Shown one piece after another: positions 2,630-7,353 of a stretch of 9,994 bases of DNA. Position numbers and translations under genes: made by a program. Source of the stretch: a virus. Its lineage: Duplodnaviria > Heunggongvirae > Uroviricota > Caudoviricetes. The stretch's first letter is position 1; each line of letters begins with the position of its first letter. The stretch lies in the IMG/VR virus record IMGVR_UViG_2541047778_000017; one strand, written 5' to 3'. The notes under the pieces are model-generated. The model searched no databases, was not told the DNA's origin, and saw only the letters and a list, made by a program, of their open reading frames with translations.

Positions 2630-3454
2630 TCAGGCGGTGAAAGTACCAATAAAGGTTTCTACTTTGCTGTCTTTGAATTTCTCAACAAGCAGATCACGAA
2701 ATTCGTTAGCCATTTCTTCCTGCACCGCCTCCAGCTGAATAATGCGCAGAACCAGTACAGGACGATCGCCAGTGATAATGCTGAGGCGTAATTTAAATGG
2801 ACGTTCTTTCAGACCTTCAAACGGAACGCATTTAAATTCAAATGCCACTGGCATAATGTCTTTGGTCTTCGCTTCGACAGATTCCATCAGGGAGCGTTTG
2901 CCGCTGAAGTCATTATCTTCAAAATCAGCGGTCTGGTTTGCTTCAATCGTGATTTTACGGACTGCCGCAGCCGCTTTTGTTGCCTGAATGGCGTCACCAT
3001 TAGCATCAAAGCCCACAAGATAGTCGGCCCAGTCTTCAATCCATTCTGCCAGTGACTTCTGGGAGTTACGCTCGCCATTAACAGACAGCAGGGCAGAGAA
3101 CGGTGCTGTCTTTTTCAGTTTGAGAGTGGCGGTGTTATCTGCGTGACCTGGTTCATCAATAGTACCCAGGTTAAGCACACTGATGGCTCGCATATTATCG
3201 GCATCGATAAAGCAGCGGGTGCCTTCATCTGCAAGATCTTTAGAATAACGGGTAAAGTCATCGATGCTGGCAGTGGAAAGCGCACCACGGAAACGGAAGC
3301 GATTTAAATTAAATTTTTCCAGATCATGAATGCGGAAATTCTCAGGCAATGCCACAGCATCGGCACCAATCTTACTGATAATTTCATTAACACCCTGAGC
3401 AGAAATAAGGGCATGGATTTGATTAATTGCGGTTGCGTCTAAGTTCTGAGACAT
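2630..3454 (-). CDS. yfdQ: YfdQ-like protein of unknown function (274 aa)
   Basis: Full-length ORF with GAGGA 5 nt upstream of ATG 3452-3454. Length and sequence match my recollection of CPS-53 YfdQ, and it sits between yfdP-like and yfdR-like genes as in K-12. Confidence 0.7.
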
Positions 3455-3519
3455 AATAAGTCCTCACTATATTAAGATATTCAGTGATGAGATAAATAAT
3501 CAGTTAATTAAGAACGATA

Positions 3520-3882
3520 TTAATGACCTGCTGCGCGGAGTTTTCCGTCAGGTTCACCGGCAAGAGTCAGTAATTGTCCCTGGTCTTCCTGCAGAATAGT
3601 CAGGCGACCACCGCGATTGACATACATCGGCGTTTCGGTGGTGTCTTCTTCGGAAATTTTCCCGCGGTTAGTCGGGCGAACATATGAGAGTTTGTGTTTG
3701 ATTTTCACACGGTTCTCATCAAATGGTTCGATTTCCAGGTTGAGCGAGACCTTACCTTTGTTTTTCGTGTTCATCACACCGGAAGCGACTTCACTGAGAA
3801 CAGCGCCGATTTTAGTTTCAAATACGCCGCCGTCCAGCTCCCCGATAAATGCCTGCACATCAGTACTGCGTTCGCTAGCCAT
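3520..3882 (-). CDS. yfdP: YfdP-like protein (120 aa)
   Basis: Start chosen at ATG 3880-3882 (MASERSTDVQAFIGELDGG...) with AGGAG 7 nt upstream. The 62-codon N-terminal extension of the track ORF (to 4068) overlaps the hairpin region and has no RBS. The 120-aa length matches recollection of YfdP. Confidence 0.6.
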   Translation of the reverse strand: MASERSTDVQAFIGELDGGVFETKIGAVLSEVASGVMNTKNKGKVSLNLEIEPFDENRVKIKHKLSYVRPTNRGKISEEDTTETPMYVNRGGRLTILQEDQGQLLTLAGEPDGKLRAAGH

Positions 3883-3930
3883 TTTGCTGCTCCTCATCAT
3901 ATCGACCCTGCAAGGTCGGTTGGTTTCTCC

Positions 3931-4066
3931 ACAAAACAGAGAAGAACACCTGCGGTGGCAGCCGCCCGGATGGATTGGGTTATGAGCCCGTCGTCCGGTG
4001 ATGCTCTTCTCTGTTTTGTAAAAAGAGCGGTACCAGCCGGAAGCAAGTGTACAAACTGGTACCGCC
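3931..4066 (-). other. two adjacent perfect inverted repeats (candidate RNA stem-loops) in the leader of the leftward operon
   Basis: Hairpin A: ACAAAACAGAGAAGA (3931-3945) pairs perfectly with TCTTCTCTGTTTTGT (4005-4019), a 15-bp stem enclosing a 59-nt GC-rich loop. Hairpin B: GCGGTACCAG (4027-4036) pairs with CTGGTACCGC (4057-4066), a 10-bp stem with a 20-nt loop. They lie 49-185 nt upstream of the yfdP-like start codon; no plausible ORF overlaps them. Confidence 0.35.
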
Positions 4067-4496
4067 AAAGCAGTGGCTGTTGTGGTGACCGGTGCTGATC
4101 TCCGGCTTGCGGTTATTTCAGACTCTCACGGGCGTTTAATTGCCCCGCCGAACAGCTCTTTTCCGCAATAGCTGCAATGTCTTTCGCGCATCAGCCTGCG
4201 CATTCACCACAACGCTGAGAGCACTTAGCCAGTTACGGCACCACACTTTGTCGCGGTTCCATAAATGCCCTCATCGTTGCACCCTGGTCTCTTCCCAGGT
4301 GTCAAACCGAACCGCCACGCTGGTTAGGCGTCTTATCAGCATCATCATTGACTTGCACATTCCGGCTACCTGGTTTGTTTGCCCGAGCAAGGAGTGGATT
4401 GTCCCCTTTAACATCCCCAGACCGCTAACGACGCATGTGCCATACGCCGTGTTACAACCAAATTTTGTTAGTACCTTGTTTGTAGGTCTGGAAAGA

Positions 4497-4548
4497 AAGA
4501 TAAAATGAAGTTGCGTATTATGCAAGTGTTTTATTGCGAGATATGCAA
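4497..4548 (-). promoter_or_regulatory. candidate leftward early promoter with two operator-like sites (pL/OL analogue)
   Basis: Two near-identical 15-bp sites, TTGCGTATTATGCAA (4511-4525) and TTGCGAGATATGCAA (4534-4548), resemble TTGCGCGTTAAGCAA in the cI-cro intergenic region. On the minus strand, TTGCAT (-35, complement of 4520-4525), a 17-nt spacer and TATCTT (-10, complement of 4497-4502) would start transcription near 4489 heading toward the yfdP-like operon. Confidence 0.3.
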
Positions 4549-4560
4549 TTTGGTGGGTAA

Positions 4561-4586
4561 TGAAAAGCCACCTTCTGGTGGCTAAT
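4561..4586 (-). terminator. rho-independent terminator downstream of the repressor gene
   Basis: Minus-strand reading AGCCACC-AGAA-GGTGGCT followed by TTTTCA, about 20 nt after the repressor stop at 4605-4607. Confidence 0.55.
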
Positions 4587-4604
4587 TGATGTTGAGGTAG
4601 GGGG

Positions 4605-5297
4605 TTAATTGTGTCGCTTAAGGGTCTGTGACTGACTGATTAAGACCTTTCCAAAGACCATAAACCGGTGTTCGTTTTCGCTGGTAATTCCCCATTCACG
4701 GTAAATCTGGTTATCAGAAATTACCAGTAGTTTGTCAGGTATCATTTGCAGTCGTTTGACATAAATTTTATCATCAAAACCAAACACATAGATACCATCC
4801 CCATCAAACTGATTGATACTGATATCAACGAAGATGAGATCTCCTGGCTCAATGGTTGGACACATACTGTCCCCACGAACGTTGATAACTTTAATGTGAT
4901 TGGCTGGTCGTCCTCCAAACATCGATACAGCATTATCAGTTATGTATTCAATGGCATGAATCACATCAATGACATCACCGCCCTGGATAAGGCCATTTCC
5001 CGCACTGACACTGACATCCAGCATTTCAATACGGAATACATCCTTCACCTGCGCAACATCCTCACCAGTACTGTTTTTACATACAGTATTACTTTTGAAG
5101 TCTGAGGTAAAGAGATCTGCAATATCAACACCTAAGCTCCTGGCAATATTACTCAGGGCTTGTTCAGTGAATTGTTTCTGCTTACCTGTTTCCAGGCGTG
5201 AGATATTCGCCGCATCCACTCCTATTGCTTCAGCGAGATCGGCGATTTTCATGTTCTTCGCCTGGCGAAGTTGTCTGACTCGATTTCCTATGCTCAT
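4605..5297 (-). CDS. phage repressor, cI/LexA-like: N-terminal HTH plus C-terminal S24 autopeptidase domain (230 aa)
   Basis: N-terminal HTH (VRQLRQAKNMKIADLAEAIGVDAANISRLETGKQ) and C-terminal S24 signatures (VRGDSMCPTI with the Ser nucleophile; IYVKRL with the Lys general base). Divergent from a cro-like gene across a 97-bp operator region. Confidence 0.9.
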   Translation of the reverse strand: MSIGNRVRQLRQAKNMKIADLAEAIGVDAANISRLETGKQKQFTEQALSNIARSLGVDIADLFTSDFKSNTVCKNSTGEDVAQVKDVFRIEMLDVSVSAGNGLIQGGDVIDVIHAIEYITDNAVSMFGGRPANHIKVINVRGDSMCPTIEPGDLIFVDISINQFDGDGIYVFGFDDKIYVKRLQMIPDKLLVISDNQIYREWGITSENEHRFMVFGKVLISQSQTLKRHN

Positions 5298-5655: not shown

Positions 5656-6205
5656 GCATCACTGGAAAGTGGAAAAACAACCTGAGTGGTACGTGAAAGC
5701 TGTCAGAAAAACTATCGCGGCATTGCCTGGGGGTTACGCTGAAGCTGCTGACTGGCTGGATGTAACAGAGAACGCTTTATTCAACCGCCTTCGTGCAGAT
5801 GGCGATCAGATTTTCCCGCTGGGATGGGCAATGATTTTGCAACGTGCTGGTGGAACTCACTTCATTGCTGACGCTGTGGCGCAGTCTGCAAATGGCGTCT
5901 TTGTGTCTCTTCCTGACGTCGAGGATGTGGACAACGCCGATATTAACCAGCGCCTGCTGGAAGTCATCGAACAGATCGGGAGTTACTCAAAGCAGATTCG
6001 TTCGGCAATCGAAGATGGGGTAGTGGAGCCACACGAGCAGACAGCAATTAATGATGAGTTGTATCTGTCAATTTCGAAGCTCCAGGAGCATGCAGCACTG
6101 GTCTACAAAATCTTCTGCGCTCCAGAAAAGAGTAACGCCCGCGAGTGTGCAGCTCCGGGCGTCGTGGCGTCGATTGCTTCTGGTTGTGGAGAAACTAACG
6201 CATGA
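5648..6205 (+). CDS. CII-like phage regulatory protein (phage 186 CII / CP76-type), 185 aa
   Basis: GTG start at 5648 with AGGAGG at 5636-5641 (6-nt spacing), overlapping the cro-like stop at 5653-5655. Position immediately after cro and overall sequence character recall the CP76-type CII family; this assignment is from memory only. Confidence 0.55.
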   Translation: MGKHHWKVEKQPEWYVKAVRKTIAALPGGYAEAADWLDVTENALFNRLRADGDQIFPLGWAMILQRAGGTHFIADAVAQSANGVFVSLPDVEDVDNADINQRLLEVIEQIGSYSKQIRSAIEDGVVEPHEQTAINDELYLSISKLQEHAALVYKIFCAPEKSNARECAAPGVVASIASGCGETNA

Positions 6206-6350
6206 ACAGTTTAACGGCAAATAACCGTTTGTCGCAACAGCTGGTGGTCAGCGTCGCTGAACACCTGTTGTTACGGCATGAATGCAGATTACCAAATCAC
6301 CTGGCTGTAAGTAACCACAGAGAACTTTACCTGACTGTGGGGGGCGAGTT

Positions 6351-6530
6351 GTGCAGGAACTTAACCGCTGGTTTCGTGACGGAAGAGGGCTTTATGTCCA
6401 TGTTATTCGTTGGGAGCCAGAAACACAGCGCGTTATCTATCTTCGCAAAGACTACCCGCATGAGTGCTTTAGTCCTTTGTGGAAATTCAGGCGTGATTTT
6501 GTTGAGTGTGAAGGACCACCAGCATATTGA
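6351..6530 (+). CDS. candidate small protein, 59 aa (VQELNRWFRDGRGLYVHVIRWEPETQRVIYLRKDYPHECFSPLWKFRRDFVECEGPPAY), GTG start
   Basis: Not in the ORF track. Alternate frame inside the long 6202..7353 ORF, bounded by TAA 6312-6314 and TGA 6528-6530. Its composition is protein-like (W, Y, mixed charge), unlike the overlapping long frame. G-rich stretch 6338-6343 could serve as an SD; a LexA-box-like palindrome lies 31 nt upstream. Confidence 0.3.
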   Translation: MQELNRWFRDGRGLYVHVIRWEPETQRVIYLRKDYPHECFSPLWKFRRDFVECEGPPAY

Positions 6531-6807
6531 TTCTGCAATTCCGGGACGTTACACTGCTCAGGCACCTTATAAAGCGGGTGCCGGGCGTGGAAACCCGAAA
6601 TTCAATATAGAGCACAACCGCGCTCATGCGGTTTTTTCGTGTCATGAGCATCGTTACGCCCAAATTATGGTGGGGCGTGCAGGGCCAACTTCGGTTGGGC
6701 CGGGTTCTATGTTGACCGGTATTTCCACCCCTGTACGTCTCACCACCTATATGGTCGTGGAAAGCCTTGGTGGTGAGTTCATTGAATTCAACATAGGGGC
6801 TGTCACC

Positions 6808-7353
6808 ATGACTACTCTCCCAACCCAATCTCACCCTGAAATCACGATTATCAATGGTCGCGTTGTTACCACATCTTTTGCAGTAGCTAATTACTTTACT
6901 AAACGGCATGAGCGGGTTTTAGATAGAATTAGAAACCTCGAATGTTCCGCTGAATTTACTGAACACAATTTTGTGTTAAGTGAATACACCGACGCATCAG
7001 GCCGCAAACTCCCTTGTTACCAAATCACCCGCGACGGTTTTGCGTTTCTTGCCATGGGCTTCACTGGTAAACGTGCTGCCCGGTTCAAAGAGGCATACAT
7101 AAATGCCTTTAACCAGATGGAAAAACTGCTTTCAAAGCCATCCACGCTGAGCGATGCCGCAGATAACGCCAGCGTGCTTTACTCCCACCTGTCGGTAATC
7201 CACAAGGTCTGGCTGCAGCAGCTTTATCCCATGTTGGCAAAAGCCGAATCCCCGCTGGCTGTAAGTCTGTATGACCGCATCAACGACGCGGCGCTACTGG
7301 CCAGTCTCATAAATTTGTCGCTGAACCCTTCAGAGGTAAGGGGGCGCAAATGA
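6808..7353 (+). CDS. Rha-family phage regulatory protein (181 aa from ATG 6808; the frame is open upstream to ATG 6202)
   Basis: MTTLPTQSHPEITIINGRVVTTSFAVANYFTKRHERVLDRIRNLECS...YQITRDGFAFLAMGFTGKRAARFKEAYINAFNQME matches my recollection of the Phage_pRha domain, which is normally N-terminal. AGGGG lies 8 nt upstream of ATG 6808. The 202 in-frame codons upstream are His/Ser/Arg/Gly-rich and poor in Asp/Lys, which argues against their being coding, although the ATG at 6202 overlaps the cII-like stop (ATGA). Confidence 0.65.
   Translation: MTTLPTQSHPEITIINGRVVTTSFAVANYFTKRHERVLDRIRNLECSAEFTEHNFVLSEYTDASGRKLPCYQITRDGFAFLAMGFTGKRAARFKEAYINAFNQMEKLLSKPSTLSDAADNASVLYSHLSVIHKVWLQQLYPMLAKAESPLAVSLYDRINDAALLASLINLSLNPSEVRGRK

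What the first reader, a model, noticed from the sequence alone, without database searches (positions are those of the whole stretch)
3883..4604. About 720 bp of ORF-free leader between the repressor gene and the leftward operon, carrying two perfect stem-loops
Phage early regions are usually densely coding, and in lambda this position holds rexAB and N. Here no protein-like ORF is present on either strand (the track ORFs at 4140..4508 and 4271..4525 have atypical composition and no RBS). The sequence does contain a 15-bp perfect inverted repeat around a 59-nt loop (3931-4019) and an adjacent 10-bp perfect hairpin (4027-4066), both just upstream of the yfdP-like start. No N-like antiterminator is encoded in the window. 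Possible roles: a cis-acting antitermination RNA comparable in concept to the HK022 put elements, an RNase III processing or retroregulation site, a small RNA, or a protein-binding DNA site.
Basis: seen in the sequence. Interest (0 to 1): 0.6.

Follow-up and report, generated by a model that had tools for sequence, protein, structure and literature searches.

The report
Prophage leader packed with structured RNAs
The gene-free 720 bases after the prophage repressor gene are an untranslated leader made of conserved RNA structures: a DicF/STnc100-type small-RNA module ending in a terminator (the 10-bp hairpin), a long helix that probably serves as an RNA-cutting site (the 15-bp repeat), and an undescribed RNA domain shared with phage P1.

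Summary
Both inverted repeats are where stated, no reading frame is conserved, and the region is 99% identical to phage mEp460.

All signals lie on the minus strand, which the leftward early promoter transcribes.

- **10-bp hairpin (4066-4027) plus U5:** a conserved intrinsic terminator. In a sibling leader it aligns to the 3' hairpin of Rfam STnc100 (45.1 bits, cutoff 47). It matches the DicF terminator of prophage Qin.
- **15-bp repeat:** the base of a 25-bp helix capped by a three-way junction. Compensatory changes across about ten genera support it (13 of 35 pairs; 0/500 shuffles). It starts right after the U-run in 141 of 142 contexts and precedes different first genes.
- **By analogy with Qin:** RNase III cuts dicBF read-through RNA 19 nt past the DicF hairpin, inside an equivalent helix. 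I therefore read this helix as an RNase III processing site. This step is inferred.
- **One junction arm** carries 14 nt identical to the initiator-tRNA anticodon stem-loop.
- **Upstream (4452-4276):** a pseudoknotted RNA domain absent from Rfam, also found in P1 and phiV10-like phages next to tRNA genes.

A model built from nine known put RNAs does not match the leader.

The parts
4566..4583 (-). Terminator of the repressor (cI-like) transcript: GCCACCAGAAGGUGGC followed by UUUUC
   Evidence: Terminator scan. The equivalent site is annotated as a terminator in SfII and Ayreon.
4497..4548 (-). Inferred leftward early promoter and operators. Operators TTGC-N7-GCAA at 4548-4534 and 4525-4511. 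Inferred -35 TTGCAT at 4525-4520, -10 TATCTT at 4502-4497, start near 4490.
   Evidence: Direct repeat D2. Same operator / 8 nt / TATCTT layout in L128 and L158, and a consensus TTGACA-N17-TAAACT in L020. The consensus scan does not call it, so this is inferred.
4276..4452 (-). Module A: conserved pseudoknotted RNA domain. P1 4449-4429; P2 4421-4418 / 4372-4369; invariant GGUAGCCGGAAUGUGCAAG 4370-4352; P4 4331-4328 / 4320-4317; pseudoknot 4325-4322 / 4308-4305; P5 4299-4295 / 4287-4283.
   Evidence: 39 distinct homologues: 98.3% of cells paired, 10 pairs with compensatory change, 0/500 shuffles reach the covariation score. Homologues in P1, P7, D6 and phiV10-like phages. No Rfam family.
4079..4213 (-). 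STnc100-like sRNA core domain: closing helix GUUGUGGUGA (4213-4204) / UCACCACAAC (4088-4079); hairpin GCCGGAGAUCAGCACCGG 4106-4089
   Evidence: 10-bp perfect repeat I5. Aligns with L003, L066 and P1 domains. L003 matches Rfam STnc100 over the full model at 45.1 bits; P1 gives 33.4 bits. The window itself gives no hit at E <= 10.
4020..4066 (-).
   Evidence: Conserved with 35 different 3' arms, and a U4-8 run in 141/142 contexts. Aligns to the STnc100 terminal hairpin and to the DicF terminator in Qin.
3926..4024 (-). Predicted RNase III processing helix.
   Evidence: Fold -51.2 kcal/mol, z = -7.9. 35 pairs, 98.2% paired, 13 compensatory, 0/500 shuffles. Positional analogue of the RNase III-cut helix after DicF.
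3977..3990 (-). CGGGCUCAUAACCC within arm 1: identical to the anticodon stem-loop of E. coli initiator tRNA (loop CUCAUAA 3986-3980)
   Evidence: tRNA sequence verified in 5426/5426 E. coli genomes. CAU loop kept in 18/19 homologues and as UUCAUAU in P1. ARAGORN finds no tRNA.
3919..3932 (-). Conserved single-stranded motif GUGGAGAAACCAAC; its GGAGA pairs with the terminator U-run
   Evidence: Invariant GGAGAA in A2. Kept even where T or SL-B are missing (L007, Providencia). A 15-nt version recurs at 6185-6199(+).
3880..3918 (-). Hairpin 3 (3918-3903), SD GAGGAG (3895-3890), yfdP-like ATG (3882-3880)
   Evidence: The hairpin sequence differs but pairing is kept in other genera.

Best explanation
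The 720 bases are the untranslated leader of the repressor-controlled leftward early operon of an mEp460/SfV-type prophage in which no N-like antiterminator was found. The leader is a chain of RNA modules on the minus strand.

After derepression, transcription starts near 4490. It first makes Module A, a pseudoknotted domain of unknown role. It then makes an STnc100/DicF-type small-RNA domain whose 3' end is the intrinsic terminator T (the 10-bp hairpin plus U5).

Transcripts that stop at T, or are trimmed to it, yield a terminator-ended small RNA of the Hfq-binding type. Transcripts that read through fold at once into SL-B. This is a 25-bp helix (the 15-bp repeat plus extensions) capped by a three-way junction.

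I propose that RNase III cuts this helix, as it cuts the equivalent helix 19 nt past the DicF hairpin in the dicBF operon of prophage Qin. The cut would release the small-RNA part and set the 5' end of the yfdP-yfdQ-yfdR mRNA, and so its stability and translation.

**Shown:** the structures, their strand, their conservation and covariation, the terminator anatomy, and the homology to the STnc100 and DicF loci.

**Inferred:** promoter position, actual termination, Hfq binding, RNase III cleavage, and any effect on expression.
For: **Identity and layout**
- mEp460 is 99.2% identical over the region.
- Gene order is cI / leader / yfdP-yfdQ-yfdR.

**Strand**
- The minus strand folds better.
- Invariant G.U pairs occur in both modules.

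**Hairpin T**
- Strong stem directly followed by U4-8 in 141/142 distinct contexts, with 35 different 3' arms.
- It aligns to the terminal hairpin of Rfam STnc100 in sibling leader L003 (model 1-206, 45.1 bits, E = 1.3e-8).
- It aligns to the DicF terminator, and the domain upstream of DicF is homologous to L066-type leaders.

**STnc100 architecture in the window**
- 10-bp closing helix, internal hairpin, linker, then T.

**SL-B**
- 13 of 35 pairs show compensatory change, against 5.3 in shuffles (0/500). Slid controls give 5 or fewer.
- 25 contiguous base pairs.
- Fixed 30-nt spacing from the U-run to the tRNA-like motif in 123 of the 141 contexts that have a U-run (30-35 nt in 138).
- It precedes yfdP, rdgC-like, yfdR-like and other first genes, so it acts at operon level.

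**Experimental precedent**
- Position +19 falls inside the 5' strand of a roughly 21-bp helix that directly follows the DicF terminator.
Against: - Rfam STnc100 and DicF models do not report the window itself, even at E <= 10. The sibling leader is just below the STnc100 cutoff, and DicF scores only 19.8 bits against a cutoff of 48.
- The helix after DicF in Qin closes an STnc100-like domain. It is not sequence-related to SL-B, so the RNase III argument is positional analogy only.
- A simple RNase III site would not need the strongly conserved arm sequence GACGGGCUCAUAACCCAAUCC.
- No expression, termination or cleavage data exist for this element. K-12 CPS-53 lacks it.
- How RNA polymerase passes T in a phage with no detected N-like protein is unexplained.
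- The promoter is weak by consensus and was not called by the scan.
Confidence: 0.55

Rival explanations
1. Factor-independent processive antitermination, as with HK022 put. An RNA in the leader binds RNA polymerase and lets it read through T and later terminators, replacing the missing N protein. The candidate is Module A, not the two hairpins.
For: - No N-like protein was found; SfII, SfIV and SfV are also reported to lack N.
- The LLS phage paper speculates on put-like control for yfdR/Q/P phages.
- Module A begins at or within about 40 nt of the promoter start in lambdoid contexts. It lies upstream of T and of a terminator-like hairpin after yfdQ.
- Its first hairpin shares ACGGCG...CAUGCGUCG, including a G.U at the same place, with put stem I.
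- It typically precedes untranslated RNA such as tRNAs and leaders, where Rho would act.
Against: - The put covariance model gives no hit in the leader. Its best window hit is elsewhere at 9.5 bits, E = 0.18.
- Several invariant put positions are not kept.
- No second copy lies in the rightward operon.
- In P1 it sits 2.3 kb from the promoter.
- In 3 contexts it is followed by a boxB/boxA-like site, which suggests N- or Nus-type control there.
Confidence: 0.15
2. SL-B is a regulatory RNA whose key part is the initiator-tRNA-like anticodon arm. It could bind a factor that reads the tRNA-fMet anticodon stem-loop (30S P site/IF3, MetRS, or an anticodon nuclease such as VapC). The effect would be to control translation of the first early-left gene, or to act as a decoy.
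For: - 14 nt are identical to the tRNA-fMet anticodon stem-loop, including the G-C pairs next to the loop.
- The loop pattern YU-CAU-A-W is kept in 18/19 homologues and in the P1 copy.
- The arm is far more sequence-conserved than the helices around it.
Against: - Only 2-3 G-C pairs form, above an internal loop. Four homologues have two G's and one has a different loop.
- Providencia homologues keep the long helix but lack this arm entirely.
- The cassette precedes unrelated genes.
- The resemblance could be a relic of a phage tRNA-Met gene. Related leaders do carry tRNA genes.
Confidence: 0.15
3. T is simply an insulator ending a non-coding leader transcript. The yfdP operon is expressed from its own promoter between T and yfdP, and SL-B is a 5' stabiliser of that transcript.
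For: T is strong and universal. The sequence right after the U-run, TTTACA, resembles a -35 element.
Against: - No promoter-like site is called on the minus strand between 4020 and 3883.
- No -10 element is conserved.
- The base-paired strands of SL-B show RNA-type covariation over exactly that stretch.
Confidence: 0.07
4. The inverted repeats act as DNA: a binding site for a dimeric protein, or a cruciform.
For: Perfect 15-bp arms 59 bp apart.
Against: - Arm sequences change between genera while pairing is kept.
- G.U wobbles are tolerated on one strand only.
- Arm spacing varies from 39 to more than 65 nt through insertions in one arm.
Confidence: 0.03

Closest known systems
DicF sRNA in the dicBF operon of cryptic prophage Qin (Rfam RF00039; 'dicF-like' prophage sequences)
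   Same: - A small RNA sits inside a repressor-controlled early operon of a lambdoid prophage.
- The terminator hairpins are nearly identical in the 5' arm (GGCGGUAUCAG against GGCGGUACCAG), each followed by U5.
- The domain upstream is homologous in L066-type leaders.
- The terminator is followed directly by a helix of at least 20 bp, then the SD of the next gene.
- DicF ends arise by termination or by RNase III cleavage.
   Different: - The sequence before the hairpin and the hairpin loop both differ, so no ftsZ targeting is implied.
- The DicF model does not report the window, and gives 19.8 bits in a sibling leader.
- The downstream helix is not sequence-related.
STnc100 (Rfam RF02076), a prophage-encoded Hfq-associated sRNA related to PasD
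   Same: - Closing helix UGGUG/CACCA, an internal hairpin next to the 3' strand, a linker and a terminal Rho-independent terminator.
- Sibling leader L003 matches the whole 206-nt model at 45.1 bits. P1 has a copy.
   Different: - The window's interior and linker have diverged enough that the model reports nothing at E <= 10.
- Copies discussed in the papers read lie downstream of stx2 or near Q, not in the early-left leader.
- Its function is unknown.
HK022 / HK639 put antiterminator RNAs
   Same: - Structured RNA just downstream of the leftward early promoter, in phages where no N-like antiterminator was found here (HK022 itself lacks N).
- Partial sequence match of Module A's first hairpin to put stem I.
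   Different: - About 175 nt with five helices and a pseudoknot, against about 70 nt with two stems.
- The put model is negative.
- No rightward copy.
- Also found beside tRNA genes in P1 and phiV10-like phages.
RNase III site in the lambda N leader and T7 early-mRNA processing signals (from my own knowledge)
   Same: A double-stranded segment of at least two helical turns, lying between a non-coding leader and the first early gene.
   Different: No sequence relation. SL-B carries a conserved three-way junction on top. Cleavage is untested.

Membership tests
HK022 put RNA | Sequence/structure match to the two-stem put core (invariant AACGGC...GUCGG...GGCGGG...AGG..GA...CAAU) | tested here: not met
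   Model R1, built from 9 known puts, gives no hit in 3883-4604 at E <= 10 with filters off.
HK022 put RNA | Copies downstream of both early promoters (putL and putR) | tested here: not met
   nhmmer profiles of Module A and SL-B find single copies only, apart from a 15-nt motif at 6185-6199.
HK022 put RNA | Acts in cis on RNA polymerase without protein factors | not testable with these tools
   Needs in vitro transcription.
STnc100 (RF02076) | Rfam model score at or above the 47-bit gathering cutoff | tested here: not met
   Window: no hit at E <= 10. Sibling leader L003: 45.1 bits, E = 1.3e-8, model 1-206. P1: 33.4 bits.
STnc100 (RF02076) | Architecture: UGGUG/CACCA closing helix, hairpin abutting the 3' strand, terminal hairpin plus U-run | tested here: met
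   4213-4204 / 4088-4079, 10 bp perfect. Hairpin 4106-4089. T plus U5. Alignment with L003, L066 and P1.
STnc100 (RF02076) | Expressed, Hfq-associated small RNA | not testable with these tools
   No transcript data for this locus.
DicF (RF00039) | Rfam model score at or above the 48-bit cutoff | tested here: not met
   Window: none. L003: 19.8 bits.
DicF (RF00039) | Homologous terminator hairpin and upstream domain, inside a repressor-controlled prophage operon | tested here: met
   Alignment with Qin. Gene context.
DicF (RF00039) | 3' end also made by RNase III cleavage of read-through RNA | not testable with these tools
   Known for DicF. Here only a helix of at least 25 bp at the equivalent place.
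Intrinsic (Rho-independent) terminator | G+C-rich stem directly followed by a U-run on the transcribed strand | tested here: met
   13-bp stem, -21.2 kcal/mol, CUUUUU tail. Conserved in 141/142 contexts. The scan missed it because its loop limit is 3-8 nt.
Lambda N/nut antitermination | N-like arginine-rich protein plus boxA/boxB | tested here: not met
   No N-like family among the ten larger ORFs searched in Pfam; small ORFs were not screened. CGCUCUUUUUACA resembles boxA but is not conserved in homologues (GUCCUUUUU, GCAAUUUUUU, GCCCUUUUU).
RNase III substrate | At least about 20 bp of uninterrupted double-stranded RNA | tested here: met
   25 contiguous pairs. A long helix is kept even in Providencia, where the interior differs.
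RNase III substrate | Cleavage by RNase III | not testable with these tools
   Needs an rnc mutant or an in vitro assay.
tRNA / tRNA-like | Cloverleaf recognised by ARAGORN or the Rfam tRNA model | tested here: not met
   No tRNA in the window. Only a 14-nt identity to the tRNA-fMet anticodon arm.

The most novel reading that the evidence does not exclude
Two of the leader's modules may be new RNA classes with their own activities.

Module A is a roughly 175-nt pseudoknotted RNA shared by lambdoid prophages, P1-type phage-plasmids and phiV10-type podoviruses. It could be a factor-independent anti-termination or anti-Rho element that replaces N and protects untranslated phage RNA such as tRNAs and leaders.

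The SL-B junction arm could be a working mimic of the initiator-tRNA anticodon arm, acting on translation initiation or as a decoy for anticodon nucleases.
Probability: 0.2. Interest if true: 0.85.

Novelty: new variant of a known kind. Interest (0 to 1): 0.55.

Why it matters
- Many common enterobacterial prophages (mEp460, SfII/SfV, cdtI, Stx2c phages, ST64B-like) lack an N homologue. How they run their early-left operon is not known.
- This analysis shows their 'empty' leader is a conserved chain of RNA modules and gives exact coordinates for experiments.
- It links the leader to DicF and STnc100, sRNA families with known or suspected effects on the host.
- It defines two structured RNAs that Rfam does not hold.
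- It flags that current annotations place spurious 'hypothetical protein' genes on these RNAs.

Tried and rejected
- **Rfam on the window and on the leader alone**: only noise in the leader.
- **Put covariance model**: negative.
- **tRNA search**: none.
- **Coding tests**: rejected an N-terminal extension of yfdP and the two track ORFs.
- **boxA/nut reading of CGCUCUUUUUACA**: rejected because the sequence is not conserved.
- **GcvB-sponge reading of CACCACAAC** (as for AgvB): set aside, because that sequence is the 3' strand of the STnc100-type closing helix.
- **ops/RfaH resemblance of GGCGGUA and GGUAGC**: judged too weak by eye; not tested further.
- **Pas sRNAs**: no sequence or context match in the preprint's main text.
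- **P1 CRISPRi essentiality paper**: uninformative.
- **K-12 CPS-53**: lacks the cassette, so K-12 data cannot help.
- **King et al. 2011 and Faubladier & Bouche 1994**: not held.
- **Covariance models of Module A and SL-B**: not built. nhmmer profiles were used instead.

Full report
**Context.** The window is an mEp460/SfV/SfII-type lambdoid prophage. Region 3883-4604 is 99.2% identical to phage mEp460 and is found in 2665 of 5426 complete E. coli genomes.

Gene order:
- Leftward: yfdR-like HD phosphatase (1978-2532), yfdQ-like DUF2303 (2630-3454), yfdP-like (3520-3882), then the leader, then an S24/HTH repressor (4605-5297).
- Rightward: cro-like, CII-like (CP76), and a region with isrK and C4 RNAs before a Rha-type gene.

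Pfam found no antiterminator family in the ten larger ORFs tested. The literature says SfII, SfIV and SfV lack N. It also speculates that yfdR/Q/P phages might use put-like RNA.

**Observation.**
- As minus-strand RNA the long one extends to 25 contiguous pairs, at -51.2 kcal/mol and z = -7.9. The short one extends to 13 pairs, at -21.2 kcal/mol and z = -4.8. Each folds better than its plus-strand counterpart.
- The region is not coding. The two track ORFs match no PHROG family.
- The frame upstream of yfdP is open for anything from 1 to 106 codons in homologues.
- Homologous segments differ in length by all residues mod 3, and no frame is stop-free in more than 15 of 39.

**Direction of transcription.**
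- The repressor transcript ends at a terminator at 4583-4566.
- Two operator-like TTGC-N7-GCAA repeats lie at 4548-4534 and 4525-4511.
- I place the leftward promoter at -35 TTGCAT (4525-4520) and -10 TATCTT (4502-4497). This rests on comparison with other immunity types that have the same operator / 8 nt / TATCTT layout, or a consensus promoter, directly before the conserved RNA. It is inferred, and the consensus scan does not call it.
- Sequence shared between immunity types begins just downstream of this point.

**The 10-bp hairpin is a terminator of a DicF/STnc100-type small RNA.**
- On the minus strand, hairpin T (4066-4027) is followed by C-UUUUU (U-run 4024-4020).
- I fetched 31 loci from other species and 80 viral contigs through the yfdP protein, and more through DNA motifs.
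- In 141 of 142 distinct contexts, a hairpin ends 0-4 nt (0-2 nt in 138) before a run of 4-8 U at this position. There are 35 different 3' arms.
- In a sibling E. coli leader (L003), Rfam STnc100 matches over its whole 206-nt model at 45.1 bits (cutoff 47, E = 1.3e-8). The model's terminal hairpin and U-run align to T. DicF also gives a weak hit there, at 19.8 bits.
- The window has the same architecture: closing helix 4213-4204 / 4088-4079, hairpin 4106-4089, a linker, then T.
- Its interior has diverged, however, and Rfam reports nothing there at E <= 10.
- In K-12 prophage Qin, the domain upstream of DicF is homologous to another variant of this leader (L066 type). The DicF hairpin (GGCGGUAUCAG...CUGCCGCC plus U5) aligns with T.

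**The 15-bp repeat is the base of SL-B, a conserved three-way junction.** SL-B begins at the nucleotide after the U-run.
- In 19 sequences from about ten genera, 98.2% of cells are paired. Thirteen of 35 pairs show compensatory change, against 5.3 in shuffles (0/500). Sliding the partners gives at most 5.
- Several G.U pairs would be A.C on the other strand.
- Parts: basal helix 4024-4000 / 3950-3926, which includes the invariant U-run : GGAGA extension; arm 1 at 3998-3966; arm 2 at 3965-3952, which takes insertions of up to about 25 nt.
- Arm 1 carries CGGGCUCAUAACCC (3990-3977). This is identical to the anticodon stem-loop of E. coli initiator tRNA, whose sequence I verified in all 5426 genomes.
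- A CAU-containing seven-base loop is kept in 18 of 19 homologues and, as UUCAUAU, in a related P1 segment.
- After the helix come the conserved motif GUGGAGAAACCAAC, a small covarying hairpin (3918-3903), the SD and the ATG.
- The T/SL-B cassette precedes yfdP in 153 of 184 contexts. Otherwise it precedes rdgC-like, yfdR-like or other genes. It is therefore an operon-level element, not a gene-specific one.
- Some relatives lack parts of it. Buttiauxella lacks T and SL-B. Two contigs keep T only. Providencia keeps T and a long helix with a different interior.

**Why RNase III.**
- In Qin the DicF terminator is directly followed by a helix of about 21 bp that closes a multi-branch domain just before the dicB SD. 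Position +19 lies inside its 5' strand.
- SL-B occupies the same place, has 25 contiguous pairs, and keeps a long helix even where its interior is replaced.
- This is analogy, not proof. It also does not explain the conserved arm.

**Module A.** The largest conserved element is upstream, at 4452-4276.
- In 39 distinct homologues, five helices are 98.3% paired, one of them a pseudoknot (loop CACC with GGUG; C-G changes to A-U in five sequences including the window). Ten pairs and 83 cells show compensatory change, and 0/500 shuffles reach the covariation score.
- Invariant blocks include UAUGGCACAUG, AGCGGUC, GGUAGCCGGAAUGUGCAAG and the loop GAAGAG. The 18-mer was the search seed, so its invariance is by construction.
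- RNAalifold alternatively pairs the invariant GCACAU with AUGUGC. This may indicate a switch, but it cannot be tested by covariation.
- Homologues lie in P1, P7, D6, RCS47 and SJ46, directly after trnI and before ban. They also lie in phiV10/TL-2011b-type phages directly before tRNA-Arg, and in Kosakonia and Phytobacter prophages.
- Of 135 distinct contexts, 52 have SL-B downstream, 26 have a tRNA downstream, and 3 have a boxB/boxA-like site.
- No Rfam family matches it in the window, P1 or phiV10.

**Put test.** Module A's first hairpin shares ACGGCG...CAUGCGUCG with put stem I. However, a covariance model of nine known puts gives no hit in the leader, and no second copy exists rightward. 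Put membership is not met. A put-like function for Module A remains a minority hypothesis.

**Limits.**
- There are no transcript or cleavage data.
- The alignments are not phylogenetically independent and are partly seeded by exact motifs.
- The Rfam models fail on the window itself.
- How polymerase passes T is open.

**Verdict.** The feature is real and conserved. It is best filed as a new variant of the DicF/STnc100 prophage small-RNA arrangement, with a predicted RNase III processing helix. It sits next to two structured RNAs that have not been described in Rfam.

Noticed in passing
window 6562-6638(+) and 6663-6750(+), inside ORF 6202-7353: Rfam isrK (61.6 bits) and C4 antisense RNA (82.4 bits) lie inside the long ORF annotated as Rha in mEp460. 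Residues 117-213 of that ORF hit Pfam Ash (PF10554), exactly over these RNA genes. Either the ORF is an artefactual fusion, or the Pfam family overlaps RNA genes.
   Followed up: partly
window 6185-6199(+): The 15-nt motif UGUGGAGAAACUAAC that follows SL-B recurs as the last codons of the CII-like gene, 10 nt before the ATG at 6202 (ATGA overlap). The same is seen in Ayreon and SfII. It may be a shared signal of both early operons, or a module-junction sequence.
   Followed up: partly
window 6206-6293(+): The best window hit of the put model lies just after the CII-like gene, roughly where HK639 annotates an 'M3-like RNA'. At 9.5 bits and E = 0.18 it is not significant.
   Followed up: no
L243 (phage P1) 1492-1700, between upl and tciA: P1's ban operon holds a homologue of the SL-B arm (loop UUCAUAU), then an STnc100-like domain at 33.4 bits. 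This is in addition to Module A after trnI and the annotated 'dicF-like region'.
   Followed up: partly
L006, L008, L021, L025-L027, L029, L030: loop of hairpin T: In several genera the terminator loop carries a roughly 25-nt insertion with a conserved GAUGAUAAUGUUCUG motif, preceded by AGGAGG-like sequence. It may be a mini-ORF or a binding site. It is absent from the window.
   Followed up: no
window 2610-2585(-), between yfdQ-like and yfdR-like: Hairpin AAUGCCCCUGCGGGGGCAUU followed by UAUGG. It is annotated as a terminator in Ayreon. In SfII the same hairpin is fused directly to the GUGGAGAAACUAACC motif by a deletion of yfdP-yfdQ.
   Followed up: partly
L145, L158, L201 (viral contigs): Module A is followed by a hairpin and GCUCUUUAA(CAA), an rrn-type boxB-boxA arrangement. 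Module A therefore also occurs in phages that probably use Nus/N-type antitermination.
   Followed up: no
L019/L023 (Phytobacter), L111, L125: Related leaders carry real tRNA genes or tRNA T-arm-like sequence between Module A and hairpin T (tRNA-Ile at +531). The leader is therefore a general landing site for non-coding RNA genes.
   Followed up: partly
L332 (K-12 MG1655) 3248-3604: In K-12 CPS-53 the yfdO-yfdP intergenic region consists of TGACGG-type iteron repeats and lacks T and SL-B. K-12 data sets therefore say nothing about this cassette.
   Followed up: yes
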